A DNA stretch of 62,349 nucleotides, filler included, from Scyliorhinus canicula (lineage: Eukaryota), in assembly GCF_902713615.1 (NCBI RefSeq). It is 4 parts of 4 records of this genome, joined end to end, with 100 filler letters (N's around TTAATTAATTAA, not from the genome) between each part and the next. Parts side by side here need not be neighbours in the genome. Positions count along the whole stretch, not along the records: positions 1 to 24,158 come from NW_024055451.1; positions 24,259 to 45,027 come from NW_024055498.1; positions 45,128 to 59,275 come from NW_024055444.1; 1 more part is not named here. The stretch is one strand, 5' to 3'. The notes under the pieces are model-generated. The model did no database searches. It saw only the letters and a program-made list of their open reading frames with translations, and was not told the DNA's origin. Numbering within the stretch: position 1 is the first letter of the stretch; each line of letters begins with the position of its first letter. This document shows positions 11,761 through 56,121 of the stretch, one piece after another. The translations under genes and the position numbers were made by a program.

Positions 11761-12060
11761 TGACACCGACTCCGCCCACTCTCTACAGTCTGGTCTCCTC
11801 ATGTCAGCAACACAACACCGACGGCTCCGTGACCTACGGCTGTTTGGCGATGGACTACTCCCCAGAAATCACCAGCCTTACCTGGAAGAACGATGGGCAG
11901 CTGATCACCACTGGAGTTAAGAAATACCCATCAGTAAAAAACAAGAAGGGAACCTACACCCTGAGCAGCCAGTTAACCATCACCGAGTCAGAGGGGGGAT
12001 GCAGCAACATCAGCTGTGAGGTTCGACACAGCGTCTCAGACAAGAGCATTGGAATGGAAT
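11761..12060 (+). CDS. IGHM: Cmu1 exon, copy 1
   Basis: ag|TG ACA CCG...GAA T|gtaagt, 300 nt; [16 protein letters not shown]...GCLAMDYSP...W...CEVRH. Confidence 0.95.
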
Positions 12061-15000
12061 GTAAGTGTTGTGGAGCCTGTGAGAAATAGAAAACCTATGA
12101 TTACCTTATATAGGGTCTTGGATATAACTCATTTGTAATACTCTGCATATTCCTGATCCCTGGAAAATCCAGCTTAGTGTCTATTGACCACAAACATTTT
12201 TTAAGTATATCAACTCATTTTGTTTATCAATTTCTTCTGCAAGAAATATCTCATTGTGTTTCTTGAAGGTCCCAGAATTTATGCTCCAAATGTTCTCCTC
12301 ACCGTGAGTTCCAGTGAAGAAATCACAAGACAGAAATTTGCAACCATCGTCTGTTCAATCAACGATTTCCATCCAAAGTCAATGACGGTGAAGTGGCTGA
12401 AGAATGGACAAGCCATGGGTTCAGGAATTGTCACCTCTCCCGCCTGTGAAGTTAACGGGAACTTCTCAGCGAGCAGTCGGCTGACAGTCTCCGCTGGGGA
12501 ATGGTTCAGCAAAGCGGTCTATACCTGCCAGGTCATTCATCAAGAGGTCACCCAAGGTCACAACATCACCGCGTCTGGTAAGAGACACAAACAGAGGAAA
12601 CAATAAATCATCCTGCACTCTGATGTTAATCAAAATCAGGAATTTATTAAAATCAGTACAAAGCACAGAATAACTTCTAATTTATTGCCATGTAGTTTGT
12701 GTTTCATTCTGATGTAAGAGCTGCATTAGGCTTGCTCACCATTCAGGATTTGATCAGCAGAGAAATAAATGTTTCCCTCTAATTTGAAGTCATTTAGTGA
12801 GTGAGGTGGATTTGATATCAGCCTTATCCTGAGACAGCTGATTATATTTGAGAGGCAGTGGGTGTCTGAACCCCTTTATTGATAACAGCTCCAAGGAAAA
12901 TTGTTGGAAAGTTAATTCAACCTATTTATAAATCAGCCTTCCGTATTAGGTTTCCGAGATCAGGATTGGAATATTTGTATTGGGAATGCTGCAATACTCG
13001 TTCATTAGAATGCCATTGTTGCTGCCTGTATTTCACAATGAGAATCGTTTAAGATGACCAAACTGGTTTTCCATTGTGTACAGAAGATTAATGGTGATCA
13101 TTAGAAGTTTCGAAGTTGATTTATTCCCATTGAGTGAGTGAAGGCTGAATCCTTCTGTCCTGATTCTGAAGATGAAACTTGTGTTGATTTTCATGTTTTG
13201 ATTCACAGATCCTTCTGATTGTATTACCGCCTCAGTAACAATACTGCCACCACCAATAGAACAGGTCTTACTGGAGGCGACTGTAACCTTAACCTGCGTC
13301 ATTTCGAATGCTCCTTATGGAGTCAACGTGTCCTGGAGTGAAGCGAAGAAGCCGCTGAAATCAGAGATTGCCGACCAGCCTGGAGCAGATACTGAGAGCG
13401 TGGTCAGCAAATTAAACATCTCGACACAAGCCTGGCTGAGTGGGGCTGTGTTTGACTGTGTGGCGAGCCATCAGGACCTGCCAACTCCTTTAAGATTTTC
13501 AATCCACAAAAAAATAGGTGAGCGGTGAAACTGAAGCAATAAGTGAGTCATTGTGTCTATTTCCATGTCAGCGGTCAGTATTTAGTATTCAGTGTATTTA
13601 TGGTCCATTCTGATTGGTAATTCCACGACTAAAAATTTTGGGCCTGTTGATCTTAAGGGGGAAATTGCTACGTAGATGAAGGAACAATGAATTAAAAGCA
13701 GTGATATGGGGTTTAGACGGAGCTAGACCAATGGCCACAAGACGTAGGAGCAGACATAGGCCATTCAGCCCAACAACACTGATCCAGCCTTCAATGAGAT
13801 CATAACTGATCTGATGTGATGATCTTCAACTCCTCTTTCCCGCCTTCTCCCGCTGTTACCAGACACCTAAACGACCCTCTTACGGACTGACCTCATTAAC
13901 ACTACACCTCTGTATGCTTCACCCGATGCCGATGTTAAGTAGTTACATTGTGTACCTTATGTTGCCCTGTTATGTATTTTATTTTATTTCCCTTTCTTTT
14001 CATGTACTGAATGATCTGTTGAGCTGCTCGCAGAAAAATACTTTTCACTGTACCTCGGTACACGTGACAATAAACAAAATCCAATCCCATATCTCTCATT
14101 GGTTGAAAATATGTCTCTCTCAACCTTGAACATACTGAACAACCCAGAGTCTACAGCCCCCTGGGTTAAATAATTCTACAGCTCCCCGACGCTCTGAGAG
14201 AGGAAATTCCTTCTCATCTCTGTCTGAAATGGGCGAACATTGACTTTGTGATCCTGCACTCTGGTCCGAGATGCTCCCACAAGGGAAAACAATCTCACAG
14301 CGACTAGACTCCGAAGCTCCCTGAGAATCTTTCATGTCTCGATTAGGCCGCCTTCATTCTTCTAAACTCCAATCAGTCCAGGCCCAGCCTACTTAACCTC
14401 TCCCTGTAAGAAAATCCCTCCATCCCTCGTGATCCTTCTCTAGACTGCCTTCAAAACCAATCTGTCTTCCTTAGGTAAGGGCACGAAAACTATTCAAAGT
14501 ATATCAGGTGTAGTCTAACTTGTCTAACCAGTCTAACTTTGTATAGTTTGAGCCAGACATCCCCATGTTTATATTCTATTCCCTTTGAAATAAATGTCAA
14601 CATTCAATTTGTCTCCATATTACCTGCAGAACTTGCTTTGTGTGGTTTCTGCACGAGGGCCCCCAATCCCCCGTTACTTCAGCCTTCTTCAGTCTTTCTA
14701 CATCTAAATAATATTCCGTTATGTTCCTCCTCCTACCAAAGTGTCTAAACTCACATTTTCCTACATTATGTTCCATCTGCCAAGTTTTTACTCAGTAACT
14801 TAAGCCACCTCTGTCCCTCTCTAGATTTTCTGTAACCTCACCACTTGCCTTTATATTTTTGTCATCTCCAGCCGTGGGAATAGTACATTCATTTATTAAA
14901 CACAGTTTTGAAATTCATGTATATTACATCTACTGATTCCCCCTTCTCCAGCCTTCTCCTCGAACAAGGGCAATAAAGTTTTCAGGCATGATTTCCCCTT

Positions 15001-18000
15001 CACGAAGCCGTGCTGACTCTGTTTGATTATATTATGTATTTCGAAATGCTCAGCTATTGGATCTGTTATAATGGACTCGAACCGTTTTCAACTGACAAAT
15101 GTTAAGGTCCCTGGCCTGTAGTTACCTGTTTTTGTCTCCCTCCCTTTTGAATAAGGGTGTCACATTGGCAGTTTTCTAATCCTCTTGGGGTAAGGTGGGA
15201 GGAGCCTGGTGTGGAGTTTAGACACCAGCACAGAATAGTTGTGCCGAATGGCCTGTTCCCCTGCTGTACACTTTCTGAAACTTTCGAATCCAATATCCGT
15301 AAATTCTCAGGGAAAAGGATTGTGTCCACCTCTGCTCCGAGCTGGGAAACCGGACAGATCCCAAAGTGGGAAATGGAAACCTTTAAAATCCAACACAAAA
15401 CACATTTCTCCCACATCTAACCCGCGGTTCCATTGTCTCCGGAATTCCCCATTTTATTGACATTTATTGTACATTTTCTGCAGATCCCAACCCGCGGGAA
15501 CCGTCCGTCTCTGTCCTCCTGCCCTCGGCTGAAGACGTCTCCGCTCAGAGATTCGTCTCCCTCAACTGCTTAGTGAGAGGTTTCTCCCCCCGAGAGATCT
15601 TCGTCAAGTGGACCGTCAATGACAAGCCGGTGAATCCCGGGAACTACAAGAACACCGAGGTGATGGCGGAGAACGGCAATAGCTCCTTCTTCATGTACAG
15701 CCTGTTATCCATTGCAGCGGAGGAGTGGGCCAGCGGCGCTTCTTACTCCTGTGTGGTGGGACATGAAGCCATCCCCTTGAAGATCATCAACAGAACGGTT
15801 GATAAATCCAGCGGTAAACCCAGTTTTGTGAACATTTCCCTCGCTCTGATGGACACCGTTAATTCATGTCAATGAGAATCTAATGGTTATATTTCGAACT
15901 AAAATAAAAATAATAAAGGTTTTTTCCTCCAATTGTGATTTAAATACACAACCGCTTAATTAATGGCGCTTCCACTTTGCTGATATTAGATCTGTTCAAT
16001 GAGACCCGGATTTCTACAGGTCTCAGCCCCAAGTCTGATACAACCAGTGCTCCCAGCTCAGATACACCCTGGGTTAGAGACAGAGTAAAACTCATTCATT
16101 CCAGGATTCAGCAAAATATCTTCATTGACTTTCCTCCCGCTGAGGAGAAATCGGGCACTTTCCCATTTCAGACAAACAAACCCATTACATTTAGATCTCG
16201 GTGTTCCTGCTTCTCTCATTGTCCATCCCTTTAAAATTAATGTCAGCTTTAAGTTGCTGTGTCACAACCACTGCAATCTGAATTGAGGGTCACACAGAAA
16301 CATGGACCAACAATCCCCTGTCAATGAGAGGGCAAAGTGAAATTGTTAATCCACTGTAACCGCACTTCACCAACACAGAGAAGGGGAGGGGCATTAGTTA
16401 ATCCACTGTAACCCCCGCTTCCCCAACAGAGATGGGGAGGGGCATTAGTTAATCCACTGTAACCCCCGCTTCCCCAACAGAGATGGGGAGGGGCATTAGT
16501 TAATCCACTGTACCCCCACTTCACCAACAAAGAGGGGGAGGGGCATTAGTTATTCCACTGTACCCCCACTTCCTCAACAGAGGGAGGGGGAGGGGCATTA
16601 GTTAATCCACTGTACCCCCACTTCACCAACAAAGAGGGGGAGGGGCATTAGTTATTCCACTGTATCCCCACTTCCCCAATAGAGAGAGGGGGAGGGGCAT
16701 TAGTTAATGCACTGTACCCCCACTTCCTCAACAGAGGGAGGGGAGGGGCATTAGTTAATCCACTGTACCCCCACTTCCCCAAAAGAGAGAGGGGAGGGGC
16801 ATTAGTTAATCCACTGTAACCCTATTCCACAGCAAAGAGAGGAAGAGGAGCATTACTTAATGCATTGTACCGGCACTTCCCAGGCAAAGAGAGGGGGAGG
16901 GGCATTAGTTAACACACTGTACCTCCACTTCCACAGCAACGAGAGGGGTAGGGGCATTAGTTAACACACTGTACCCCCACTTCCCAGGCAAAGAGAGGGG
17001 TAGGGGCATTAGTTAACACACTGTACCCTCACTTCCCCAACAAAGAGACGGTGGGGCCTGAGTAATCCATTATACCCCTGCTTCCAACAATGAGTGGAGC
17101 GGCATTATTTAATCCATTGTACCCACACTGCCCCAACAAAGAGAGCAAAGGGGCAATACTAACTCATTTTACCTCCACTTTCCCGACCAAAAGAGGAGGA
17201 AGGTGACGAGTGAACTCTCTGTATCTCCACCTCCAGCAGGGAGAACCCAAAGGCAATTTGCTGAGCTAACCAGAGAGAGGGAGATTATTAACTCAATATC
17301 TTCCCAGTCCCCAAGCAGAGAGTTTGGAAGTAAACCGTTCACTAGACGACGAAATCAGTTACTGAAATGACAAGACGGCATGTAGCTTACTGGCTGAAGG
17401 GTTTAAAAGACCATCATGATAAAGATGTTCTTAAAGTATCTATTTATGCAACAGAATTTTTTAGCACCCTTGCCCCTCTTATCCGTATGCTGAGACCGAT
17501 TCCCCAGAATCCAAATCCAGACTGGTGATTGAATTCTCGCTGGGTTTTCACTGTTCTCTCCTGAGGCACCTCCTTGTATTTTTGCATTCGGTCACCTGAT
17601 GTCAGCTTGCAACTCACACAAAACACATTTATATGCAGAAAGTTCAACATATTCTACATCGGTACCAATAATACCCACAACTGGCAAAGCTACAGGCAGC
17701 TGATACAAATACACAGACAGATAAACAGACACAGACACTACACACACATGCACACAGACCCACAAACACACACACGCTCACACGTAGACACAATCACACA
17801 CATGGACACACACATAGAAACACATGCATAAACATACACCCAGGCACAACGAACCACACATATTTTGACACAAAACACACGCAAACGTGCGCAAAAATTC
17901 ACAAACATGCACATAAACACAAACAACCCACATTTATACAGAGACAGGAACACGTCTACATCCACACATACACACACTAACCCACACACACAAGCGGCTA

Positions 18001-19846
18001 CACAAATGTACACAAACAGACACATACAGCCACATGTCCACACAGATACACAAACATATAAAACCAGGCAAGCAGGCTGACAGAAGAATATTAAACACAA
18101 ATGTAACCAATAACATATACATTAGCAGAATTTCACGATGACAGAAATATTTCCATTCAGAGACAATAATCCACATTAACACACTAATGGGCTCACGCCG
18201 ACACATATTAGCAGACTTGTACACATGCTAACACGAACACATATCAATACACATAGAATCATCAATACACATCAATAGATGGTTATAAACAACCATCAAT
18301 GCATAAACAGCACTACTGCCTCACAGCGCCATAAACCCGGGATCAATTCCAGCCTTGGGTGACTGTGTGGTGTTCCGACGTTCTCCCGTGTCTGTTCCTG
18401 TTTCCTACGGGTGCTCCGGTTTCCTCCCACAGTCCAAAGATGTGCACGTTCGGTGGATTGGCCATGCTGTATTACCCCTTAGTGCCCACAATGTTAGGTG
18501 GGGTTACCAGGTTCTGGGGACAGGGCAGGGGCATGAGTCCAGGGAGGGTGCTCTTTCCGAGGGTCGGTGCAGACTCTTGCAGAATGGCCTCGTTCGGCAC
18601 AGTCGGGATTATACGATGATGATTCTATGATGAAATACACGCATCAACAAACACACACACACACACAAACGCACTTATCCAGACACAAACATTAAGACAA
18701 TGACATGCATGTTGAACGTATAAAGACACATTAACACTTTTATTACTGGGCAGGGAAGTATAAACTTATATTAACACAGGCATTAATATATAAACATAGA
18801 CTTCAACACACAAACACACAATAAAACACTCATAAATACACATTGATTTAAGATAAATTTACACACAGGCGCTGACACACAAATCAATACTCATTGACAC
18901 TTATTTTTTTTAAATTTAGGGTAGCCAATTATTTTTTCCAATTAAGGGGCAATTTAGCATGGCCAACCCACCTAACCTGCACGTCTTTGGGTTGTGGGGG
19001 TGAAACGCACGCAGACACGGGGAGAACGTGCAAACTCCACACGGACAGTGACCCAGGGCCGGGATTCGATCCCGGGTCCTCATCGCCGTAGGCAGCGATG
19101 CTAATCACTGTGTCACCGTGCTGCCCTACAATGATACTTATAAAGACATCAGGACACACAAACGAAGAGTAAAGAAACACGAATTTCGCATCTCCACAGA
19201 CACAAAAGCTAAAGAACAAACACAAACGTCAGGCAAGGGCGGCACGGTGACGCAATGGTTAGCACTGCTGCCTCACGATCCCGTTCCTGGGTCTGTGTCC
19301 CTGTGGAGTTTCTCCATGACCCGTGGGTCTCACCCCGACAACCCAATGATGTGCAAGCTAGGTGGATTGGCCATGCTAACTTGCCCCTTAATTGGAAGAA
19401 AAAAGTTACAGAGATCGATTTCTGAGTGTCATGAACTCAACAGTAGATATGCAATGACAAATATATTAAAGAATGAATTAGCAGAGGGAGAAAATGAAAC
19501 GAGAATATTAAAAACAAAACGTGTATTAACAAACAATCTGATTATATTTATTGGGCTCTATCCCTGTAGATACCACAGACCACACCTGGACTGAAGAAAA
19601 TGAGGATGATAACGGGAACATCTGGACAACCGCTTCCACATTCATCACCCTGTTCGTCCTGAGCATTTCCTACAGCGCTGCAGTCACTCTGGTGAAGGTG
19701 AGAAGATTCAATCCACTCACACTTCAAACTGACAGAAGGTGTTTAAAACATCTCGAAATGTTTGATTGATTAAAAACTCTAACATCAATGTCCCAGATCA
19801 TACACATCTGCTTCATTATTTTCTCTCTCTTTTACAGATCAAGTGA
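11761..19846 (+). CDS. IGHM: IgM heavy-chain constant region, copy 1 (CH1-CH4, secretory tail, TM1, TM2), intact
   Basis: Four phase-1 C1-set exons with canonical splice sites, IgM secretory tailpiece with penultimate Cys, CART-type TM; no stops or frameshifts. Confidence 0.96.
12269..12577 (+). CDS. IGHM: Cmu2 exon, copy 1
   Basis: ag|GT CCC AGA...TCT G|gtaaga, 309 nt; [13 protein letters not shown]...WLKNG...YTCQVIH. Confidence 0.95.
13209..13517 (+). CDS. IGHM: Cmu3 exon, copy 1
   Basis: cag|AT CCT...ATA G|gtgagc, 309 nt; [17 protein letters not shown]...[13 protein letters not shown]. Confidence 0.95.
15484..15875 (+). CDS. IGHM: Cmu4 exon plus secretory tailpiece, copy 1 (membrane-form donor after 15813)
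   Basis: cag|AT CCC; [15 protein letters not shown]...[11 protein letters not shown]...KSSG|[19 protein letters not shown]; internal donor AGCG|gtaaac. Confidence 0.96.
15902..15907 (+). terminator. Polyadenylation signal, secreted IgM copy 1
   Basis: AATAAA 26 nt after the stop, with a second copy just downstream. Confidence 0.75.
16330..17160 (+). repeat. Tandem repeat of about 52-55 bp (ggggaggggcattagttaatccactgtacccccacttc...) in the CH4-TM intron
   Basis: About 14 visible units; a shorter homologous array lies at about 34730-35040. Confidence 0.9.
17700..18270. repeat. CA-rich low-complexity tract (homologue at about 35580-36170)
   Basis: Visible degenerate (CA)n. Confidence 0.85.
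18305..18630 (+). mobile_element. HE1-like shark SINE (orthologous copy at about 36190-36500)
   Basis: tRNA-like head and V-domain core ggtttcctcccacagtccaaagatgtgc..ggtggattggccatgct. Confidence 0.8.
18904..19126 (-). mobile_element. HE1-like SINE, specific to copy 1
   Basis: Reverse-complement core tagcatggccaacccacctaacctgcac; absent at the homologous site near 36780. Confidence 0.8.
19570..19697 (+). CDS. IGHM: IgM TM1 exon, copy 1
   Basis: tag|AT ACC...GTG AAG|gtgaga; acidic spacer [35 protein letters not shown] (CART motif). Confidence 0.95.
19838..19846 (+). CDS. IGHM: IgM TM2 exon, copy 1 (IK*)
   Basis: Polypyrimidine tract, tacag|ATC AAG TGA; gives a KIK cytoplasmic tail equivalent to KVK. 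Confidence 0.9.
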   Translation: MK

Positions 19847-20257: not shown

Positions 20258-21656
20258 TCTTTGTGTAATATTTTCGCTGAAATTTTAATAAATATTGAAT
20301 CAAAAATGAAAAAATAAGACTAATCTGAACTCCTTTCTCTCAGGTCCATCGGCACTGATCCTTTTCGCCGATTATACAGTTTTCTCCCCTTTCCCAGACA
20401 GATATTTCTCACCAGTCCTGTCTGGGATGTGTCTGAACTCAAGGCCCCTCAGTGAAAGAGCGACTGCGCCACCAAGCGGCCAATCCGGGATAAGACACCT
20501 TCACCTTTGCCTTTTTATGGTAAACTCCAGAGACAGAATGATTGCACAGCTGAAGAATTCCACAGATTCACTACCCTCCGATGCAAGAATGCTTCCTCGT
20601 CTCTGTCCTAAATTTGAGACTCCTTACTCTGAGATTATGCCCTCAGACTGTCCCACAAGAGGAAACAAGATGATTTTTCAGGCTGTGAAACTGGCTAAAG
20701 CTCTTTCCACAGTCAGTTCACTGGAACACTCTCACTCGGGTGTGTGTGTGTCTCGGGGCTTTTCCAGTCACACTGATGTTTGAAATCTCTTCCCACAGTC
20801 AGAACAGACAAACACATTGACAGTTTGTGATATGTAGGTCCTAATGAATTGAGTGACTGTCAGATCTCGATGTTATATTTGGATTAAGTTGCCCAGCTGC
20901 CAATCCTCCCGTTCTAATGCCTGAAAAATAAGTTTACAAAAATGATCACTGTGCTCACTAAGAATGTGATAGAAATTCACAACAGATCATTCTAGTTTAT
21001 ATCGAACCTTCTTTCCTCTCTTGCTTTCCCCAAGCATGTGGTCCAGTCAAAATAAAAGACCAAAATCAGCTGGAAGTCCCAACAAAAGTGTAGGGAACCT
21101 TCCTAACTGAACCAGAATATTGTTCCCAGTGTCTCTGAAACACTCTGTCCGCTGAGGTATCCACTTGGTGTGGAAGGTGTCAAACATTCCGGTGGATACC
21201 ACATGCTCCCTCTGCAGGGCCACTGGGAATAGACAAGTCCACGGAACAGAAGTCGGCTGCCAGAGTAACCCCCCCCCCCCCCCTAATAATAATATTTACT
21301 GTCACAAGTAGGCTTATCAGCCATGATTGAATGGAGGAACAGACTCGATGGACCAAATTGCCTAATTCTACTCCTATGTCTTATGGTCATATGAGAAGCT
21401 TCAGAGACTCATGAGAATTATTTGTGTCTAAAAACCTTCACTCCAACTAAAGAATCAGCTCAATAAGAGGATAACAGACCTGCAGCGATATAAAGATTAC
21501 AGTCTACATTCCATGTTCATCATCACAGCTTCAACTTGACCTGTACCTAATTTCTGTGTATGTCAGTGAGTGAAAGAGCCGAGAGACTTAGATGCTCAAA
21601 CATCCAGGGAAAGGTTGTGAAAATAAATAACCTTTATTCCTTTAAAAATCACCAGT

Positions 21657-24158: not shown

Positions 24159-24258
24159 NNNNNNNNNNNNNNNNNNNNNNNNNNNNNNNNNNNNNNNNNN
24201 NNTTAATTAATTAANNNNNNNNNNNNNNNNNNNNNNNNNNNNNNNNNNNNNNNNNNNN
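24159..24258. other. Assembly gap (44N-TTAATTAATTAA-44N), true size unknown
   Basis: An identical spacer occurs at all three gaps. Confidence 0.98.
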
Positions 24259-24259
24259 G

Positions 24260-27490: not shown

Positions 27491-27544
27491 TCTCACGCAT
27501 GCTCAGGAGCGAGAACTGAAGACAAGTGGCGCTCGAATGTGGCT

Positions 27545-29602: not shown

Positions 29603-29902
29603 CGACACCGTCTCCGCCCACTCTCTACAGCCTGGTCTCCTCCTGCCAGCAACACAACACCGACGGCTCCGTAACCGTTGGCTGTTTGGCGATGGACTAC
29701 TCCCCAGAAATCACCAGCCTTACCTGGAAGAAAGATGGGCAGCTGATCACCAACGGAGTTAAGAAATATCCGTCAGTGAGAAACAAGAAGGGAACCTACA
29801 CCCTGAGCAGCCAGTTAACCATCACCGAGTCAGAGGGGGGATGCAGCAAAATCAGGTGTGAGGTTCGACACAGCGGCTCAGCCAAGAGTATTGAAATACC
29901 AT
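29603..29902 (+). CDS. IGHM: Cmu1 exon, copy 2
   Basis: ag|CG ACA CCG TCT...CCA T|gtaagt, 300 nt. Confidence 0.95.
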
Positions 29903-32900
29903 GTAAGTATTGTGGAACCTGTGACAAACAGAACCGCTTTGATTATTTTATTTACAACTTTGGTTATTTATGATACATTTATGGTACTCTGCATAGTTCT
30001 GATTCTTGGCGAAAAATATTGACTGCAGATAAACAGTTAAAACATAATAAATCATTTTAATTGTTACAAGATCTTCTGCAAGAAATGTTAACTTGTGTTT
30101 TGAAGGTGGTGGAACTGACATCCATCCAAATGTTCTCCTCACCGTGAGTTCCAATGAAGAAATCTCAAGACAGAAATTTGCAACCATCGTCTGTTCAATC
30201 AACGATTTCCGTCCAAACTCAATTAACGTGAAGTGGCTGAAGAATGGACAACCCATGGGTTCAGGAATTGTCACCTCTCCCGCCTGTGAAGTGAACGGGA
30301 ACTTCTCGGCGAGCAGTCGGCTGACAGTCTCAGCTGGGGAATGGTTCAGCAAAGCGGTCTATACCTGCCAGGTCACTCATCAAGAGGTCACCCAAAGTCA
30401 CAACGTCACCGCGTCTGGTAAGAGACACAAACAGGAAACAATAAATCATCCTGCACTCTGATGTTAACCCAAATCAGGAATTTACTGAAGTTAGTACAAA
30501 TCACAGAATAATTTCTAATTTACTGCCATGTAGTTTGTGTTTCATTCTGATGTCAGAGCTGCATTAGGGCTGCTCACCATTCAGGATATTACCAGAACAG
30601 CAAAGAATGTTTCCCTCTACTTTTAGATCATTTAGTGAGTGAGGTGGACTTGATATCAGTTTTATTCCGAAACAGCTGATTATATTTCAGATGCAGTGGG
30701 TGCCTTGAATCCTTTATTGATAACGGCTCCGGGGGAAAGTGTTCAAACGTTCATCCAACCTATTTATAAATTAGCGTTCAAGACTGTGTTCCAGAGATCG
30801 GGAATTATGAATCGCATTGGGAATGCTGCAATACTGATTCATTAAAATGATACCGTGGCTAAACGACTTTCACAATAATGGTTAGCACTGAGGCCTCACA
30901 GTGCCTGGGACCCGGTTCGATACTGACGCCGGTTGACTGTGTGGGGTTTACACCTTCTCCCCGTCTCTGCACGGGTTTCCTCCAGGTGCTTTGATTTCCT
31001 CCCACAGGCAAATACGTACAGGTTAGGTGAATTGGTCATGCTGAATTGTCGCTGAATGTCGAAAGATTAGGTGGGGTTGTGAGGCTAGGGTGGGGGAATT
31101 GTCCTAGGTAGAGTGCTCTTTCGAGGGTCGGTGCAGACTCCATGGGCCGAATGGTCCTCTTCTGCACTGTAGTAATCTATGATTCTATAATGGCATTGGC
31201 AGAACACGCTGGTTTTCTTTTGTATATCGAAGATTAAAGGCGGTCTTCAGAGGTTGATATTTCGAAGTTGCTTTATTCCCATTTAGAGAGTGAAGGCTGA
31301 ATCCTGCTGTCCTGATTATGAAGCTGAAACTTGGTTAATTTTCATGTTTTCAATCACAGATTCTTCCGTTTGCACTGATGCCTCAGTAACAATACTGCCA
31401 CCATCAATAGAACAGGTCTTACTGGAGGCGACTGTAACCTTAACCTGCGTCATTTCGAATGCTCCTTATGGAGTCAACGTGTCCTGGAGTGAAGCGAAGA
31501 AGCCGCTGAAATCAGAGATTGCCGACCAGCCTGGGGCAGATACTGAGAGCGTGGTCAGCAAATTAAACATCTCCACACAAGCCTGGCTGAGTGGGGCTGT
31601 GTTTGACTGTGTGGCGAGCCATCAGGACCTGCCAACTCCTTTAAGAATTTCAATCCACAAAAAAATAGGTGAGCAGTGAGACTGAAGCAATAAGTGAGTC
31701 ATTGTGTCTATTTCTAGTGTCAGTGCAGCGGTCAGTATTTAGCATTCAGTGTATTTATGGTCCATTCTGATTGGTAATTCCACTAACTAAATACTCTCGG
31801 CATTTAGAGTTTAAGGGGGAAATTGATATGCAGATGAATGAACAATGAATTAAACCCAGTGATATTGGGTTTAGATGGAGCGAGACCATAGACCACAAGA
31901 CTTAGGAGCAGATGTAGGTCATTGGGCCCATCAACACCGGCCCAGCCTTCAGTGAGGTCATGACTGATCTGATGTGATAATCTTCAACTCCTCTTTCCCG
32001 CCTTATCCTCATATCTCTTGACGCCTTTACTGATTTAAAATATGTCTCTCTCAACCTTGAACGTACTGAACAACCCAGATTCTACAGCCCCCTGCGTTAA
32101 ATAATTCCACAGCTTCGCTACCCTCTGAGAGAGGTAATTCCTTCTCATTTCTGTCTTAAATGGGCGAACCCTTATTTTGTGATCCTGCACGCCGCTCCGA
32201 GACGCTCCCACAAGGGAAAACAACCTCTCAGCGTCTATCATAAGAAGTTCCCGGAGAATCTTTCATGTCTCACTTAGGTCGCATTAATTCTTCTAAACTC
32301 CAGTAAGTACAACCCAACCTAGTTAACCTCAGCTCATAAGAAAATCCCTCCATACTCGGGATCAGCCTCGTGATCCTTCTCTGGACTGCCTTCAAAACCA
32401 ATCTGTCTTCCTCAGATAAGGGCAACAAAATTATCCAAAGTGTATCAGGTGTAGTCTAACTAATGCCTTGTATAGTTTTAGCCAGACTTCCCCATGTTTA
32501 TATTCGATTCCCTTTTAAATAAATGTCAACATTCAATTTGCCTCCATATTACCTGCAGAATTTGCTTTTTGTAGTTTCTGCACGAGGACCCCCAATTCCC
32601 CCGTTACTTCAGCTTCCTGCAGCCTTTCTCCATCTAAATAATATTCCGTTATGTTCTTCCTCCTACCAAAGTGGCTAACCTCACATTTTCCTACACCATA
32701 TTCCATCTGCCAAGTTTTTGCTCAGTAACTTAAGCTGTCTCTGTCCCTCTATGGATTTTCTGTGATCCTCACCACTTGCCTTTCTATCTATTTTTGTAAC
32801 TGCAGCCATGGCAATAGTACATTCACTTATTAAACGGAGTTTTTTAATTCATGTATATGACAAATACTGGCTCTCCTTTCTCTAACCTGCTCGTTACCAC

Positions 32901-35900
32901 CGCAAAGAATTGTAATACATTTGTCAGGCATGATTGACCTTCACAAAGCCGCGCTGACTCTGCTTAATTATATTCTGTATGTCTAAATGTTCAGCTATCA
33001 AGGTCACTGGCCTATAGTTACCGGATTCTGACTCCCTTCCCTTTTGAATAAGGGTGTTACATTGGCAGTTTCCCAATCCTTTGGGAGTAAGGTGGGAGGA
33101 GCCTGCTGTGGAGTTTATACACCAGTACAGAACAGACGGACCGAATGGCCTGTTTCCCTGCTGTACACTTTCTGAAACTTTCGAATCCAATATCCGTAAA
33201 TTCTCAGGGAAAAGGATTGTGCCCACCTCTGCTCCGAGCTGGGAACCGGGACAGATCCCAATGTGGAAAATGGAAACCTTTAAAATCCAACACAAAACAC
33301 ATTTCTCTCACATCTAACCCGCGGTTCCATTGTCTCCGGAATTCCCCATTTTATTGACATTTATTGTACATTTTCTGCAGATCCCAATCCGCGGGAACCG
33401 TCCGTCTCTGTCCTCCTGCCCTCGGCTGAAGACGTCTCCGCTCAGAGATTCGTCTCCCTTAGCTGCTTAGTGAGAGGTTTCTCCCCCCGAGAGATCTTCG
33501 TCAAGTGGACCGTCAATGACAAGCCGGTGAATCCCGGGAACTACAAGAACACCGAGGTGATGGCGGAGAACGGCAATAGCTCCTTCTTCATGTACAGCCT
33601 GTTATCCATTGCAGCGGAGGAGTGGGCCAGCGGCGCTTCTTACTCCTGTGTGGTGGGACATGAAGCCATCCCCTTGAAGATCATCAACAGAACGGTTGAT
33701 AAATCCAGCGGTAAACCCAGTTTTGTGAACATTTCCCTCGCTCTGATGGACACCGTTAATTCATGTCAATGAGAATCTATTGGTTATATTTTGAACTAAA
33801 ATAAAAAGAATAAAGGTTTTTTCCTCCAATTGTGATTTAAATACACAGCCGCTGAATTAATGGTGCTTCCACTTTGCTGATATTAGATCTGTTCAATGAG
33901 ACCCGGATTTCTACAGGTCTCAGCCCCAAGTCTGATACAACCAGAGCTCCCAGCTCTGATACACCCTGGGTTAGAGACAGAGTAAAACTCATTCATTCCA
34001 GGATTCAGCAAAATATCTTCATTGACTTTCCTCCCACTGAGGAGAAATCGGACAATTTCCCATTTCAGGCAGACAAACCCATCACATTTAGATCTCGGTG
34101 TTCCTGCTTCTCTCATTGTCCATCCCTTTAAAATGGAGATGCCGGCGTTGGACTGGGGTGAGCACAGTAAGAAGTCTTACATCACCAGGTCCAACAGGGT
34201 TGTTTCAAACGCGACCTTTCGGAGCGCAGCTCCTTCCTCAGGTGAATGGAGAGGTATCATCCAGGAACATTTATATAGACAAAGTCAGAGATGCCGGACA
34301 ATGCTTGGAATGCGAGCATTTGCAAGTAAATTGGATTCATGTCGCATTACATCCACCCCCCACAATCAGGCCTGGACTTGCAAAATTCCACCAACTGTTC
34401 TGGCTTGAGACAATTCACACCTCTTTAACCTGTGATTATCCCTCTCCCTGGATCTAATGATTTGATTACCTGCAAATGCTCGCACTCCAAGCATTGTCCA
34501 GCATCTCTGACTTTGTCTATATAAATGTTTCTGGAACATACCTCACCATTCACCTGAGGAAGCAGCTGCGCTCCGAAAGCTCGTATTTGAAACAAACCTG
34601 TTGGACTTTTACCTGGTGTTTTAAAATTAATGTCAGCTTTAAGTTGCTGTATCACACACACTGGGAACTGAATTGAGGATCAAACAGAAACATGGACCAA
34701 CAATCCCCAGTCAAAGAGAGGGGAAAGTGAAATTGTTAATCCACTGTACCCCCACTTCACCAACAGAGAGAGCGGGAGGGGTTTTAGTTAATCCACTGTA
34801 CCCCCACTTCACCAATAGAGAGAGGGGGAGGGGCTTTAGTTAATCCACTGTTCCTCCACTTCCACAACAGAGAGAGGGGTAGGGTCATTAGTTAACACAC
34901 TGTGTCCCCACTTCCCCAAAAAAGAGACGGTGGGGGCTGAGTTAATCCACTGTTCACCCGCTTCCAACAATGAGTGGAGCGGCATTATTTAATCCACTAT
35001 ACCCACACTTCCCCAACAAAGAGAGCAAAGGGGCAATAATAACCCATTTTACCTCCACTTTCCAGACCAAAAGAGGAGGAAGGTCCTGAATGAACTCTCT
35101 GTATCTGCACCTCCAGCAGGGAGAACCCAAAGGGAATTTGCTGAGCTGACCAGAGAGGGAGATTATTAACTCAATATCTTCCCAGTCCCCAAACAGGGAG
35201 TTTGGAAGTAAACGGTTCTCTAGACTAAGAATTCAGTTACTGACATTACAAGACACCATGTAGCTCACTGGTGGCTGAAGGGTTTAAAAGACCATCATGA
35301 TCAAAATGTTCCTAAAGTATCTATTTATGCAACAGAATTCCTTTAACACCCTTGTTCCTCTTATCCGTTTGCTGAGACCGATTCCCCATAATCCAAATCC
35401 AGACTGGTGATTGAATTCTCCCTGGGTTTTCACTGTTCTCTCCTGAGGCACCTCCTGGTATTTTTGCATTAGGTCACCTGATGTCAGCTTGCAACTCACA
35501 GAAAACACATTTATAAGCAGAAAGTTCAACATATTCTACATCGGTATCAATAATACCCACAACTGGCAAAGCTACAGGCAGCTGATGCAAATACACAGAC
35601 AGATAAACAAACACAGACACTACACATACATGTACACAGACCCACAAACACACACACGCTCACACGTGGACACAAACACACACATAGACACACATAGAAA
35701 CACATGCGTTAACATACACCCAGGCCCAACGAACCACATATTTTGACACAAAAACACACGCAAACGTGCGCACAAAATTACAAGCATGCACATAAACACA
35801 AAGCACACATTTATACACACACAGACACACGTGCACATCCACACATAGACACACAAATCCACACTCACAAGCGGCTACACAAATGTATACAAACAGACAC

Positions 35901-37516
35901 ATACAACCACATGTCCACACAGATACACAAACATATAAAACCAGACAAGCAGGCTGACAGAAGAATATGAAACACAAATGTAACCAATAACATTTACATT
36001 GGCAGAATTTCACGATGACAGAAATATTTCCATTCAAACAGAGACAATAATCCACATTAACACACTAATGGGCTCACATGGACACATATTAGCATACCCA
36101 TACACATGCTGGCACAAACACACGTTAGTGCTCACAGAGGCATCAATGCACATCAATAGATAGTTATAAACAACCATCAACGCATAAATAGCTCTGCTGC
36201 CGCACAGCGCCATAAACTTGGGTTCAATTCCAGCTTTGGGTGACTGTGGTGTTCCCACGTTCTCCGGTGTCTGTTCCTGTTTCCTCCGGTGCTCTGGTTT
36301 CCTCCCACAGTCCAAAGATGAGCAGGTTCGGTGGATTGGCCAGGCTATATTACCCCTTAGTGCCCACAACGTTAGGTGGGGTTACCAGGTTCTGGGGACA
36401 GGGCAGGGGCATGCGTCCAGGTAGAGTGCTCTTTCGGAGGGTCGGTGCAGACTCAATGGGCCGAATAGTCTCGTTCGGCACAGTCGGGATTATATGATGA
36501 TGATTCTATGATTAAATACACGCATCAACAAACACACACACACACAAACGCACTTATCCAGACACAAACATTAAGACCCTGACATGCATGTTGAACGTAT
36601 AAAGACACATTAACACTTTTATTACTGGGCAGGGAACTATAAACTTATATTAACACAGGCATTAATATATAAACATAGACTTCAACACACAAACACACAC
36701 AATAAAACCCTCATATATACACATTGACTTAAGATAAATTTACACACAGGCGCTGACACACAAATACACAGATCAATACTCATTGACACATGAACACACA
36801 CAATGACACTTATAAAGGCATCGGGACACACAAATGAAGAGTAAAGAAACACGAATTTCGCATCTACACAGACACAAAAGCGAAAGAACAAACACAGACG
36901 TCAGGCAAGGAGGGCACGGTGACGCAATGGTTAGCACTGCTGCCTCAGGATCCCGCTCCTGGGTCTCTGTCCCAGTGGAGTATCCCCGTGACCCGTGGGT
37001 CTCACCCCGACAACCCAATGATGCGCAGGCTCGGTGGATTGCCCGTGTTAAATTGCCCCTTAATTGGAAGAAAAAAATTAGAGAGATCGATTTCCGAGTG
37101 TCATGAACTCAACAGTAGATATGCAATGACAAATATATTAAAGAATGAATTAGCAGCGGGAGAAAATGAAACAAGAATATTAAAAACAAAACGTGTATTA
37201 ACAAACAATCTGATTATATTTATTCGGCTCTATTCCCGTAGATAACACAGACCACACCTGGACTGAAGACGATGAGGATGATAACGGCAACATCTGGACA
37301 ACCGCTTCCACATTCATCACCCTGTTCTTCCTGAGCATTTCCTACAGCGCTGCAGTCACTCTGGTGAAGGTGAGAAGATTCAATCCACTCACACATCAAA
37401 CTGACAGAAGCTGTTTAAAAGCACTAAATGTTTGATTGATTAAAAACTCTAACATCAATGTCCCAGATCATAAACATCGGCTTCATCATTTTCTCTCTCT
37501 TTTACAGATCAAGTGA
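29603..37516 (+). CDS. IGHM: IgM heavy-chain constant region, copy 2, intact
   Basis: Same exon structure and phases as copy 1; no stops or frameshifts. Confidence 0.96.
30106..30417 (+). CDS. IGHM: Cmu2 exon, copy 2
   Basis: aag|GT GGT GGA...TCT G|gtaaga, 312 nt. Confidence 0.94.
30870..31190 (+). mobile_element. HE1-like SINE in the CH2-CH3 intron, specific to copy 2
   Basis: ggttagcactg...cacagtgcctgggacccggttcga head; absent from the copy 1 intron near 13040. Confidence 0.78.
31360..31668 (+). CDS. IGHM: Cmu3 exon, copy 2
   Basis: cag|AT TCT...ATA G|gtgagc, 309 nt. Confidence 0.95.
31880..32720 (-). mobile_element. Degraded CR1-type LINE 3' fragment in the CH3-CH4 intron (homologue at about 13735-14830)
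   Basis: Minus-strand remnant ...[25 protein letters not shown]..., typical of the CR1 ORF2 C-terminus. Confidence 0.75.
33381..33772 (+). CDS. IGHM: Cmu4 exon plus secretory tailpiece, copy 2 (membrane-form donor after 33710)
   Basis: Differs from copy 1 by one residue (LSCL vs LNCL); tail ...DTVNSCQ*. Confidence 0.96.
33800..33805 (+). terminator. Polyadenylation signal, secreted IgM copy 2
   Basis: AATAAA at the homologous position. Confidence 0.75.
34130..34625. mobile_element. Palindromic non-autonomous element (Penelope-derived/MITE-like), specific to copy 2
   Basis: Inverted arms at about 34180-34325 and 34468-34620; tttaaaa on both sides, single at the empty site near 16230. Confidence 0.7.
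37242..37369 (+). CDS. IGHM: IgM TM1 exon, copy 2
   Basis: tag|AT AAC...GTG AAG|gtgaga; [35 protein letters not shown]. Confidence 0.95.
37508..37516 (+). CDS. IGHM: IgM TM2 exon, copy 2 (IK*)
   Basis: tacag|ATC AAG TGA. Confidence 0.9.
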   Translation: MK

Positions 37517-40674: not shown

Positions 40675-40993
40675 TTTAGTGGCGACATCCGCCGGGACCC
40701 TGTTGTAAGTGGAAACACCACAGTGTCCAGGACCCTGAAATTTGAATTAGAACTCCAAATTGCAGAGAAAGAAAGAGATCACAAGTATTCAAGGTGTTCA
40801 AAATAATAAGCGAAATTCGGAAGTGTGTTTAGTGCATGCGTACTAACAGGGCTGTAAGGTAAAACTGAAAGCTTTTTGTTGCGACAAACTTTCGGTAGTT
40901 TTGTAATCGGAAAATAGCGTAAGCCGTACCCTTTTTTCGAAACACCACCCCAGCAACCCCCTGTTCCAAATTATAAAAAGAGAGTCAGAGGAA

Positions 40994-45027: not shown

Positions 45028-45127
45028 NNNNNNNNNNNNNNNNNNNNNNNNNNNNNNNNNNNNNNNNNNNNTTAATTAATTAANNNNNNNNNNNNNNNNN
45101 NNNNNNNNNNNNNNNNNNNNNNNNNNN
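45028..45127. other. Assembly gap; must hide several kb or a join, because integrase and the 3' LTR are missing
   Basis: N run with spacer; pol is cut within RNase H. Confidence 0.95.
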
Positions 45128-48829: not shown

Positions 48830-49866
48830 TAAACCACAGAGAATACTGCGTACAGACAACCACGGAGAGAATCAGTCATGGGCGGAAAGAATTGAAAATG
48901 TCAGAGAGCCGGAAGAGGCAGTTCCCAGTGAGTAACAGTAAAACCCACTGCGGAAACTGAGCAGACTGAACCCAACCGACAACTCAGAGACTTTGGGACA
49001 AGTTCCCACGATTACAAGAAACACAAACAGCAAGTTTAAAGTTAGAAACAAATCGAAACTAACAGTAAATACATAAATTTAAAGAGAAACGGAGAAAAAA
49101 ATGAATGAAAGAAGAAAATGGTCAAATCGGAGAAAATGCAATCAGAAACTCTGGGAAATGTTAAACCACAGTCAGTGATTGGGGGGAAGGGGGGGAAGGG
49201 GGGGGGAAGAAGGGGGGAAGAAGGGGAGGGGGAGGGGGGAAGGGGGGGAAAGGGGGGGAAGGGGGAAGGGGGAGGGGGAAGGGGGGAAGGGGGGAAGGGG
49301 GGAGGGGAAGTGGGGGGAGAAGGGGGGAAGGGGGGAAAGGGGAATGGGGGGTTGTTGGGTTACGGGTATAGGGTGGATACGTGGGTTTGAGTAGGGTGAT
49401 CATTGCTCGGCACAACATCGAGTGCCGAAGGGCCTGTTCTGTGCTGTACAGTTGCTGTACTGTTCTATGTTCTGTCCATGGTAGAATCAAACAGAAATAA
49501 GGATGACATTCACTACCTCGGGTGAATGCCTTTCCTTCATGAATGAAATACTATTCGACATGATTTTCCCATAGTCCTGTTATTATCCTTTTCCCATATT
49601 TGACCTTTACCCGTTTGTAAATCACTGTTCAATCAGCTCCCACCACCCATTCTGATAGTGCATTTCAGATCGTTAGAGTTTACTGGGTGGAATAAAACAT
49701 CACCTCAGTCCCCATTGGTTTGCATTGTATCAATTGTATTGTAACAGTGAATACAATTAAAATGCAATTAAAGTGATAACATTGCCACAAAAACTGAGCA
49801 ATTCACGTGATTGGCAAATACTCCAGGTTAATCAGTGGTTAAACCATTTTCTTGATCCATGCTCAG
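48830..49866 (+). repeat. Left arm of an inverted duplication of the intron upstream of the supporting V (partner about 51058-51990), interrupted by a G tract and SINE tail at about 49180-49470
   Basis: 48900-49012 is a close reverse complement of 51810-51922; 49792-49812 matches the reverse complement of 51110-51130; intermediate blocks are colinear. Confidence 0.85.
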
Positions 49867-50751
49867 GTTTCTGTACAGCTCTCTCCGTGCTCTCTATCAC
49901 TGTGTGTGTGATCCTCACCATGGTCAGGTTTCTGTACAGCTCTCTCCGTGATCTGTATCACTGTGTGTGTAATCCTCACCATGTTCAGGTTTCTGTACAG
50001 CTCCCTCCGTGCTCTGTATCACTGTGTGTGATCCTCACCATGTTCAGATCTCTGTACAGCTCTCTCCGTGCTCTGTATCACTGTGTGTGTAAACCTCACC
50101 ATGTTCAGGTTTCTGTACAGCTGTCTCCGTGATCTGTATCACTGTATGTGATCCTCACCATGTTCAGGTTTCTGTACAGCTCTCTCCCTGCTCTGTATCA
50201 CTGTGTGTGATCCTCACCATGTTCAGGTTTCTGTACAGCTGTCTCCGTGCTCTGTATCACTGTGTGTGTGATCCTCACCATGTTCAGGTTTCTGTCCAGC
50301 TCACTCCGTGCTCTGTATCACTGTGTGTGTGATCCTCACCATGTTCAGGTTTCTGTACAGCTGTCTCCGTGCTCTGTATCACTGTGTGTGTGATCCTCAC
50401 CATGTTCAGGTTTCTGTCCAGCTCACTCCGTGCTCTGTATCACTGTGTGTGTGATCCTCACCATGTTCAGGTTTCTGTACAGCTGTCTCCGTGCTCTGTA
50501 TCACTGTGTGTGTGATCCTCACCATGTTCAGGTTTTTGTACAGCTGTCTCCGTGCTCTGTATCACTGTGGTGTAATCCTCACCATGTTCAGGTTTCTGTA
50601 CAGCTCTCCCCGTGCTCTGTATCACTGTGTGTGTAATCCTCACCATGTTCAGGTTTCTGTACAGCTCTCTCCGTGCTCTGTATCACTGTGTGTGTAATCC
50701 TCACCATGTTCAGGTTTTTGTACAGCTGTCTCCGTGCTCTGTATCACTGTG
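49866..50751 (-). repeat. Tandem array of 15 23-RSS units (59-61 bp each)
   Basis: On minus each unit reads CACAGTG-23 nt-ACA(G/A)AAACC. Heptamers are perfect in 14 of 15 units, two nonamers are perfect ACAAAAACC, and one nonamer is degenerate. Confidence 0.95.
50713..50751 (-). other. 23-RSS of the supporting V-delta (perfect consensus)
   Basis: CACAGTG atacagagcacggagacagctgt ACAAAAACC. Confidence 0.96.
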
Positions 50752-51057
50752 CTGTGTGCCGGCTCAGTGCAGCGTAGTACACAGTGGAGTCGCTCGGTTG
50801 AAGTTTGGAGATCTTTAAACGGCTGATTTTCTTGGAAGTGTCGATAGAAGCAGAAATTCTCCCTCCGGCAGCGTTTTCTTTATTCGCGCCTCCTGAAGTG
50901 TGTCTCTGAAGCAGGAATTCCGGAGCCTGTCCTGGGGACTGGCGGTACCAGTGTACTGTGTACTGACAGAACCCTGAATATTCCCAATTTAAAGTAACTG
51001 TGTCACCGGCAGCAGAGTTTTGGATAGGCGGGTTCTTGGACACCGAGGAACTCGAAT
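50752..51057 (-). CDS. TRDV: Leaderless supporting TCR delta V segment of NAR-TCR; open frame, but canonical Cys replaced by W and A
   Basis: ccgccag|AT TCG acceptor; TVTLNWEYSGFCQYTVHWYRQSPGQAPEFLL...SDSTVYYAALS; CDR1 Cys; phase matches the J donor. Confidence 0.85.
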
Positions 51058-54799: not shown

Positions 54800-54852
54800 C
54801 GGCTGTGACAGTCACCACCGTCCCGGATCCATCTGCATGTTTCCAGTTACCA
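54800..54852 (-). CDS. NAR-TCR J segment (GNWKHADGSGTVVTVTA)
   Basis: IgNAR/IgH-like GSGTVVTV; donor G|gtaagt; preceded by a 23-RSS. Confidence 0.9.
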
Positions 54853-55203: not shown

Positions 55204-55274
55204 GGAAATTGTCCCGGTCTCTGTCACTGTGAATAGTCCAGTGTAGCACCGTATGGCAAGTCAATATAAAATCC
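55204..55274 (-). other. NAR-TCR D segment (55232-55246, CTACACTGGACTATT) with 12/12 RSS
   Basis: 5' GGATTTTAT-12-TACGGTG; 3' CACAGTG-12-ACAATTTCC; about 380-390 nt from both V and J. Confidence 0.88.
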
Positions 55275-55635: not shown

Positions 55636-55926
55636 TGTTCCAGTATCTGTACTGAGCTTTACAGAAATAGGTGGCGCTGTCTTCAACTCTCACATCCCGA
55701 ATTTCCAGCGAAAATGTCTTTTCTGCTTTATTCACCGACACAACAAATTTCCCTCCGCTGGAGATCCGCTCCCAATCTGCCCCGGGCTGGGGTTGTCTGA
55801 AGAAATCCCCGCTTTTCAAATAAGGATAATATAATCCTCTATACAGAACACAGGTGATAGTGAGAGTCTGACACTCCTCCTTGGTCATCGCTTCTGGGTC
55901 CTGTGTCACTGACTGACTGAAATATC
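55636..55926 (-). CDS. NAR-TCR V exon (VNAR-like, short FR2/CDR2)
   Basis: ccag|GA TAT; SVTQDPEAMTKEECQTLTITC...WERISSGGKFVVSVNKAEKTFSLEIRDVRVEDSATYFCKAQ aligns by eye with the VNAR framework; non-canonical FR1 Cys. Confidence 0.92.
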
Positions 55927-56075
55927 CTGGAAATTAAACAGAGGCAGTTTAATGGACCATCACAGCCAGAAACACAGATCAGGGCTAAAACCCCAGACAG
56001 GGTCTGTAATTGGGATGGACTCGGGCAGCTTTGTGTTAAATCCACACAATGTGGGTTAGTCTGATTGGTACTCAC

Positions 56076-56121
56076 CGGGTAAACAGACGCACAGGGTGAA
56101 AACAAGGAGGATTCCCGTCAT
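56076..56121 (-). CDS. Leader exon of the NAR-TCR V (MTGILLVFTLCVCLPG)
   Basis: 46 nt, hydrophobic, G|gtgagt donor, phase 1, in frame with the V exon. Confidence 0.92.

What the first reader, a model, noticed from the sequence alone, without database searches (positions are those of the whole stretch)
11761..56121. Two intact IgM constant genes scaffolded next to a NAR-TCR / TCR alpha-delta region
Seen: Cmu copy 2 ends at 37516 and the supporting V-delta begins at 50752, in convergent orientation. Established: sharks rearrange IgH V segments into TCR delta transcripts, Ig-like V segments occur in the shark TCRAD locus, and ancestral IgH-TCRAD linkage has been proposed. Inference: this could be a retained physical junction between complete IgM genes and TCRAD, which would make some 'trans' rearrangements cis. 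Caveat: the link crosses the gap at 45028-45127, which is demonstrably larger than drawn.
Basis: partly seen in the sequence, partly recalled or inferred. Interest (0 to 1): 0.75.

Follow-up and report, generated by a model that had tools for sequence, protein, structure and literature searches.

The report
False join, real shark IgM–TCR linkage
The antibody (IgM) genes and the special T-cell receptor segments sit side by side here only because separate genome pieces were stitched into one window; other copies really do alternate without gaps elsewhere in this shark genome, an already published layout that likely lets antibody V segments be joined to the T-cell receptor delta chain on the same chromosome.

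Summary
The 'gap' at 45028-45127 is a pack joint. The window is four stretches from four contigs: IgM copy 1 = C59, copy 2 = C106, NAR-TCR cassette = C52, last V = C414. The described junction, distance and orientation do not exist. The parts are real: two intact IgM constant genes, each with intact VH-D-D-J upstream, and a NAR V-D-J plus supporting V-delta. The idea is right elsewhere in G000. IgM clusters and NAR-TCR cassettes are contiguous without N on C106 (200 kb), C101 and C51, and a complete IgM gene lies 91 kb from D-delta on C108. This linkage is published (Flajnik 2025, PMC12227049; Table S1 interleaves IgM and NARTCR V in great white shark). No VH-delta junction was seen here. Two side results. 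(1) Every supporting V-delta is followed by 5-23 stacked 23-RSSs; the scan noted shorter stacks before in other sharks' DNA. (2) 15 of 17 supporting V-deltas carry Trp at canonical Cys23, yet public run contigs show such V-deltas spliced and rearranged, one in frame; I found no mention of this in the papers I could search. Verdict: artefact as drawn, known biology underneath.

The parts
11761..19846 (+). IgM constant gene, copy 1 (G000:C59): CH1 11761-12060, CH2 12269-12577, CH3 13209-13517, CH4+secretory tail 15484-15875, TM1 19570-19697, TM2 19838-19846. Its VH-D-D-JH lies outside the window at C59:54653-56220
24159..24258 (.). pack joint (artificial) between the C59 and C106 stretches
29603..37516 (+). 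IgM constant gene, copy 2 (G000:C106): CH1 29603-29902, CH2 30106-30417, CH3 31360-31668, CH4+secretory tail 33381-33772, TM1 37242-37369, TM2 37508-37516. Its VH-D-D-JH is at C106:848811-850390; a block of TCR alpha/delta-type V segments lies 45 kb further upstream, with no N between
49857..50751 (-). tandem array of 15 recombination signals (61-bp unit: heptamer, 23-bp spacer, nonamer, about 22-bp linker) directly behind the supporting V-delta
50752..51057 (-). leaderless supporting TCR V-delta; open frame, CDR1 Cys present, canonical Cys23 is Trp and Cys104 is Ala
54800..54852 (-). NAR-TCR J with 23-RSS upstream and splice donor
   Evidence: splice of this J type to the supporting V-delta seen in run contigs
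55232..55246 (-). NAR-TCR D flanked by two 12-RSSs
55636..56121 (-). NAR-TCR V: leader 56121-56076, V exon 55926-55636, open frame, a-b loop Cys, followed by a 22-spacer RSS
59276..59375 (.). pack joint (artificial) between the C52 and C414 stretches
61730..62080 (+). frameshifted TCR alpha/delta-type V pseudogene with one 23-RSS (G000:C414); relatives occur on many IgM-bearing contigs

Best explanation
The IgM-to-NAR-TCR junction in this window is an artefact of window packing, but its pieces come from a real shark antigen receptor complex in which complete IgM miniclusters alternate without gaps with NAR-TCR cassettes and TCR V segments, a layout that likely lets IgM VH segments be joined in cis to the single D-delta/J-delta/C-delta unit. 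SHOWN: four source contigs; gap-free alternation on C106, C101 and C51; a complete IgM gene 91 kb from D-delta on C108; VH and TCR V segments carry 23-RSSs and D-delta has a 5' 12-RSS; a supporting V-delta matching a copy on C52 is joined to that D-delta in a public run contig. INFERRED: the unplaced contigs belong to one chromosomal region; IgM clusters and TCR V blocks were amplified together by segmental duplication; a VH is then just another 23-RSS V in the TCR V field, and the C108 VH (opposite strand to D-delta) would join by inversion. NOT SHOWN: an IgM VH on C-delta in this species.
For: Joints and mapping. C106:4620001-4820000 has 0 N; order, all + except one V: NAR V, supporting Vd, VH, Cmu1-4+TM, IgH-like V, TCR V, NAR V, supporting Vd, TCR V(-), VH-D-D-J, Cmu1-4+TM. 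C101:15001-109900 has 0 N: IgM(-), then NAR cassette(+) 53 kb from the VH. C51:189600-269500 has 0 N: cassette(-), then IgM(+) 46 kb away. C108: IgM(-) 19177-45220, two TCR V, two IgH-like V, D-delta 136422, 15 J, C-delta 182835-185444, J-alpha array, C-alpha; 0 N in 1-130000 and the first N run starts at 137537, after D-delta and the first J. 7 of 12 contigs with a NAR cassette and 22 of 31 with the last stretch's V type also have a Cmu1 hit. The real left neighbour of the window's cassette on C52 is an orphan IgM TM exon 8 kb away. Run X13's contig has the 9 differences of the C52:69754 copy (8 listed; the ninth follows from the count) and continues into D-delta letters. Published: PMC12227049 sections 6 and 15 and Table S1.
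Against: No assembly link between C108 and C106, C52, C59, C101 or C51 was seen; only C108 shows IgM and C-delta on one contig. C59 (copy 1) holds no TCR V in its 86 kb by tblastn at E 1e-3. C52 has no CH exon. The five VH 3' loose ends shown read into IgM D/JH-type letters and none into D-delta or J-delta; 29 further loose ends were not displayed. The co-occurrence lists are truncated (40 scored of 114, 117 and 264 candidates), and some contigs look like haplotype duplicates (supporting V-deltas of C87/C88 and C90/C95 are alike), so the p-values overstate independence.
Confidence: 0.88

Rival explanations
1. The window shows a true scaffold junction between IgM copy 2 and this NAR-TCR cassette.
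For: Both kinds of gene are intact and belong to one gene complex. By coincidence the cassette's true neighbour on C52 is a convergent IgM TM exon 8 kb away.
Against: The spacer is the pack joint. The two sides map at 100% to C106 and C52. On C52 the DNA left of the cassette is known and is not copy 2: the TM exon there is 85% identical to copy 2's, has an in-frame stop and no CH exons.
Confidence: 0.01
2. The NAR-TCR cassettes and TCR V segments among IgM clusters are orphons, copied along with IgM duplications to places away from C-delta and mostly dead; VH-delta chimeras would still be trans.
For: Many interleaved V segments are broken. 16 of 17 supporting V-deltas lack at least one canonical Cys and the remaining one is frameshifted. 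Mean pairwise dN 0.083 vs dS 0.139 among 11 open copies is only weak constraint. No assembly link of these contigs to C108.
Against: Run contigs show these V-deltas spliced to NAR J and joined to D-delta or J-delta, one in frame. In great white shark the same mix lies on one chromosome with the TCR constant gene (Table S1). One complete IgM is contiguous with D-delta on C108.
Confidence: 0.07
3. The gap-free interleaving is a mis-assembly of highly repetitive IgM/TCR duplications.
For: More than 100 near-identical Cmu1 candidates on many small contigs; probable haplotype duplicates.
Against: Four independent intervals, in different orientations and spacings, without N; the same interleaving is tabulated in another species.
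Confidence: 0.04

Closest known systems
Elasmobranch antigen receptor complex, AgRC (Flajnik et al. 2025, PMC12227049; I saw the abstract, passages, sections 6 and 15, and part 1 of 2 of Table S1)
   Same: IgM linked to TCR alpha/delta; TCR-type V exons between IgH clusters; proximity proposed to explain VH-to-D-delta rearrangements. The great white sheet lists IgM genes alternating with NARTCR V. The catshark sheet lists IgM(-), TAILV, IgWV-TCRD, TCRA in the order I find on C108.
   Different: The catshark sheet lists no NAR-TCR cassette; here 17 supporting V-delta copies on 12 contigs are mapped and three IgM-NAR intervals are shown N-free. The sections read do not mention stacked RSSs or the Cys23 loss. 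The supplementary PDF and part 2 of Table S1 were not read and could bear on this.
NAR-TCR, doubly rearranging TCR-delta (Criscitiello 2006, not held; known here through passages of PMC1845163, PMC6795676, PMC5931798)
   Same: NAR V with leader and a-b loop Cys, own D and J, spliced to a leaderless supporting V-delta with CDR1 Cys that rearranges to D-delta/J-delta.
   Different: Supporting V-deltas here mostly lack the canonical Cys23 (often Cys104 too) and carry 5-23 RSSs instead of one.
Shark IgM minicluster (V-D-D-J-Cmu; described in PMC1845163 and PMC12227049 passages)
   Same: One VH, two D, one JH, four CH exons, secretory tail, two TM exons.
   Different: None in structure; one C106 cluster looks partly germline-joined.
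IgH V use by shark TCR-delta and TAILV (Criscitiello 2010, Deiss 2019, Ott 2021: not held, known only as cited in PMC12227049, PMC6795676 and PMC5931798)
   Same: IgH-like V segments with 23-RSS just upstream of D-delta (C108:126227, 128592); a full IgM VH within 91 kb.
   Different: No VH-C-delta transcript was seen here.

Membership tests
Shark IgM minicluster | Four C1-set CH exons, secretory tail and TM exons with open frames and splice sites | tested here: met
   (both copies)
Shark IgM minicluster | One VH, two D, one JH upstream with 23 / 12-22 / 12-12 / 23 RSSs | tested here: met
   C59:54653-56220 and C106:848811-850390
Shark IgM minicluster | Expression of these two particular clusters | tested here: inconclusive
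   VH family heavily covered, but contigs cannot be assigned to one of more than 100 similar copies
NAR-TCR cassette | VNAR-like V with leader, a-b loop Cys and no Trp in the WYRK motif | tested here: met
   features from PMC1845163
NAR-TCR cassette | Own D and J with RSSs; J spliced to a leaderless supporting V-delta with CDR1 Cys | tested here: met
   splice in contigs of runs X1 and X14 (paralogous copies)
NAR-TCR cassette | Supporting V-delta with canonical Cys23-Cys104 pair | tested here: not met
   window copy has Trp23 and Ala104; Trp23 in 15 of 17 copies, Ala104 in 12 of 17. It works like a supporting V-delta but is not canonical
NAR-TCR cassette | Supporting V-delta rearranges to D-delta/J-delta | tested here: met
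   for paralogues: X13 (C52:69754 copy to D-delta), X14 (C87-like allele, in frame, to a J matching C108:145548 at 22 of 24 letters). The window copy itself was not seen rearranged
Antigen receptor complex (IgH-TCR alpha/delta linkage) | Complete IgM gene contiguous with TCR-delta D/J/C | tested here: met
   C108; not met by the window itself
Antigen receptor complex (IgH-TCR alpha/delta linkage) | Window's contigs (C59, C106, C52, C414) on the same chromosome as C-delta | not testable with these tools
   needs Hi-C, FISH or a chromosome-level assembly
Antigen receptor complex (IgH-TCR alpha/delta linkage) | IgW, IgNAR, UrIg2 and PSMB5 in the same linkage group | not tested
   not searched in G000
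Antigen receptor complex (IgH-TCR alpha/delta linkage) | IgM VH rearranged onto D-delta/J-delta/C-delta | tested here: inconclusive
   none among the loose ends shown, 29 not shown; contigs drop rare junctions

The most novel reading that the evidence does not exclude
In catsharks, IgM miniclusters and NAR-TCR cassettes form one co-amplified recombination field that works both ways. VH segments join D-delta in cis, and the stacked 23-RSSs behind a disulfide-less supporting V-delta can also be joined by simple deletion to the 12-RSS D of the next same-strand IgM cluster (58 kb away on C106), giving a doubly rearranged NAR V - V-delta - Cmu antibody chain.
Probability: 0.06. Interest if true: 0.8.

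Novelty: already known. Interest (0 to 1): 0.3.

Why it matters
As a window feature it does not matter: the junction is artificial. The underlying linkage explains how shark T cells borrow antibody V segments and bears on the common origin of IgH and TCR-delta, but that point was published in 2025. The expressed supporting V-delta without canonical Cys23, and the long RSS stacks, are small open questions for a shark immunogeneticist.

Tried and rejected
1) Treating 45028-45127 as a scaffold gap: rejected. 2) Looking for TCR V on copy 1's contig C59: none found. 3) Looking for CH exons on C52: none; only an orphan TM exon. 5) VH-to-delta junctions in run contigs: no support, no evidence against. 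6) One search listed no holder on record as RNA; X1 and X4 are guessed RNA and X13/X14 are of unknown kind. The J-to-V-delta splice in X1 and X14 argues for RNA there. 7) My first reading, that the in-frame X14 contig lacks both cysteines, was withdrawn: differences near alignment ends are not listed, and its 5 unlisted differences fit a Cys104-bearing allele. Trp23 stands. 8) Selection on the RSS stack: mismatch rates 1.9% heptamer, 3.2% spacer, 4.4% nonamer over 165 units do not show it. 9) The X14 J as a J-alpha: no match within 2 mismatches in C108:185-300 kb; the best match is a J upstream of C-delta. 10) Naming the TCR V block by homologue search gave no hit; the call rests on PDB single-domain hits to TCR alpha chains, single 22-24-spacer RSSs and no nearby C exon. 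11) PMC7909615, PMC1458790, PMC3222143 and PMC7039070 are not held; they may describe the RSS stack or the Cys loss. Searches gave no title or abstract start describing either.

Full report
1. Observation. The window holds three identical 100-base spacers (44 N, TTAATTAATTAA, 44 N) at 24159-24258, 45028-45127 and 59276-59375. These are pack joints. Searches of G000 (4.22 Gb, 646 contigs) place the stretches at 100% identity on four contigs: C59:62001-86158, C106:856878-877646, C52:124001-138148 and C414:248001-250974. Three of the stretches end at their contig's end. The junction, the 13-kb distance and the convergent orientation in the finding are therefore not genomic. A protein identical to a G000 locus is named Scyliorhinus canicula by the database.

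2. The parts are real. Both Cmu genes have four C1-set exons, a secretory tail and two TM exons with open frames and proper splice sites. Each has an intact VH-D-D-JH upstream in the genome, outside the window. The third stretch has a NAR V (VNAR hits) with leader and a-b loop Cys, a 12/12 D, a J, and a leaderless supporting V-delta with CDR1 Cys. These match the features given in PMC1845163 (passages).

3. True neighbours of the window's pieces. Copy 1: C59 is 86 kb and shows only VH-D-D-J-Cmu. Copy 2: a block of V segments (six loci, several broken) lies at C106:786975-803946, 45 kb upstream of its VH, with no N between. Five of the six carry one RSS with a 22-24 spacer, and the one tested hits TCR alpha chains best among single-V PDB chains. 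The nearest NAR cassette found on C106 is about 3.76 Mb away. The cassette: C52 has three NAR cassettes, three other TCR-type Vs, two 100-N gaps and no CH exon. An orphan IgM TM exon with an in-frame stop lies 8 kb from the window's supporting V-delta, convergent. So the false join happens to mimic a real but broken neighbour.

4. The linkage is real elsewhere. C106:4620001-4820000 has no N and reads NAR V, supporting V-delta, VH, Cmu, IgH-like V, TCR V, NAR V, supporting V-delta, TCR V, VH-D-D-J, Cmu. C101 (95 kb) and C51 (80 kb) each join a complete IgM cluster to a cassette without N, 53 and 46 kb apart, divergent. The only C-delta found is at C108:182835-185444. On C108 a complete IgM gene (minus strand, 19177-45220) is followed by two TCR Vs, two IgH-like Vs, D-delta at 136422, 15 J segments, C-delta, a J-alpha array and C-alpha. 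There is no N between the IgM VH and D-delta, 91 kb apart. Across the truncated hit lists, 7 of 12 contigs with a cassette and 22 of 31 with the last stretch's V type also have a Cmu1 hit. That fits joint amplification, but the contigs are not independent.

5. How it likely works. Shown: VH and TCR V segments have 23-RSSs and D-delta has a 5' 12-RSS, so the 12/23 rule (established knowledge) permits VH-to-D-delta joins. Shown: the cassettes are used. Run X14 has a 592-base contig with NAR J spliced to a supporting V-delta and an in-frame junction to a J matching C108:145548 at 22 of 24 letters. Run X13 has a contig matching the C52:69754 copy (8 listed differences shared, total count 9 as expected) that runs into D-delta letters. 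Inferred: these contigs lie in one chromosomal region; VHs act as extra V segments of the TCR-delta field; the C108 VH would join by inversion. Not shown: any IgM VH on C-delta. The five VH 3' ends displayed read into IgM D/JH-type letters, and 29 loose ends were not displayed.

6. Comparison with what is known. Flajnik et al. [quoted passage not shown] They note TCR-type V exons between IgH clusters and say proximity supports the trans-rearrangements. Table S1 interleaves IgM with NARTCR V on great white chromosome 27 and lists IgM(-), TAILV, IgWV-TCRD, TCRA on one catshark scaffold. The catshark sheet lists no NAR-TCR cassette, so the mapping in section 4 adds detail, not a new kind of system. 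PMC6795676 and PMC5931798 (passages) restate the known VH-delta chimeras.

7. Side result A: stacked RSSs. All 17 supporting V-delta copies found are followed by head-to-tail 61-bp units, each a full 23-RSS. There are 15 in the window and 5-23 in the 15 copies counted (two look-alike copies left out). A generic double-RSS pattern gave 100 matches in G000, all in these arrays, and 0 for the reversed control (a lower bound). 24 other V segments checked have at most one RSS. Read-through tails of database proteins from whale shark, epaulette shark, sawshark and an unnamed record match the array's translation beyond one RSS: 7 of 13 tails tested, 0 of 100 shuffles reaching each score; one more tail covers a single RSS only. 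The scan had noted 2-5-unit stacks in other shark and ray genomes. Both junctions seen use the first RSS, but joins at later RSSs would not show as loose ends in that test. Function is untested.

8. Side result B: lost disulfide. Codon 23 is Trp in 15 of 17 copies and codon 104 is Ala in 12 of 17. The one copy with both cysteines is frameshifted as assembled, which could be an assembly error. Trp23 is in 7 of 7 Scyliorhinus database proteins, three of them from S. torazame, while 33 of 35 other listed shark proteins keep Cys23 (5 of 47 proteins were not parsed). Contigs of X1, X4, X13 and X14 show no difference at Trp23. X14 likely keeps Cys104; X13 cannot have it. So a rearranged, in-frame NAR-TCR chain lacks the canonical V-domain disulfide in its supporting domain. 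I found no mention in searches or in scan notes, but the key primary papers are not held.

9. Verdict. As drawn: artefact. As biology: a member of the published antigen receptor complex. Interest 0.3, carried by the testable cis pairs and the two side results.

Noticed in passing
window 49857-50751 (-) and 16 paralogues on C51, C52, C53, C87, C88, C90, C93, C95, C99, C101, C106, C615: Tandem arrays of 5-23 complete 23-RSSs (61-bp unit) behind every supporting V-delta and nowhere else among 100 genome-wide pattern matches; longer than the 2-5 units the scan noted in other sharks.
   Followed up: yes
window 50752-51057 (-) and paralogues: Canonical Cys23 is Trp in 15 of 17 supporting V-deltas (also in S. 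torazame proteins) and Cys104 is Ala in 12 of 17, yet such V-deltas are spliced and rearranged in public run contigs, one in frame.
   Followed up: partly
L013:1336-1659 (C52:121336-121659, +): Orphan IgM TM1/TM2 region with an in-frame stop, no CH exons on the contig, 8 kb from the window's supporting V-delta.
   Followed up: yes
L018:5102-5860 (C106:4655102-4655860): IgM cluster whose VH seems fused in the germline to D, with a single 12-RSS before JH (partly germline-joined).
   Followed up: no
L040/L041 (C615:89616-99118, -): Two NAR Vs, one apparently fully germline-joined and one V-D joined, ahead of one supporting V-delta; resembles the 'V(gj)V(gi)V' entry of Table S1 for great white shark. 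Other cassettes (C106:4708403, C52:83612, C53:5390) also look V-D joined.
   Followed up: no
L108-L110 (C108:272115-297343): A second run of J-alpha segments, near-copies of the first, follows C-alpha: tandem duplication of the J-alpha/C-alpha unit or a haplotype duplicate.
   Followed up: no
L021:6172-6450 (C106:4686172): Divergent IgH-like V with a damaged heptamer, 6 kb behind an IgM TM exon and next to a TCR V: TAILV-like relic.
   Followed up: no
window 40907-45027 (+): LTR-retroelement gag-pol-like frames (protease, RT, two RNase H domains) 3.4 kb behind copy 2's TM2; cut by the end of the stretch. Observed only.
   Followed up: no
window 21646-23711 (+): Fragmented frames that look like a LINE ORF2 (by eye; the piece scanned had no Pfam hit) at the end of C59.
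   Followed up: no
window 1388-10136 and 24259-28170: Long low-complexity satellite arrays in the JH-CH1 intron of both IgM genes; intron 17.6 kb in copy 1 and 11.9 kb in copy 2.
   Followed up: no
P0029, P0033, P0034, P0035, P0040, P0041: Mustelus asterias gene models show C-delta on six different contigs in two sequence types, against one C-delta found in G000.
   Followed up: no
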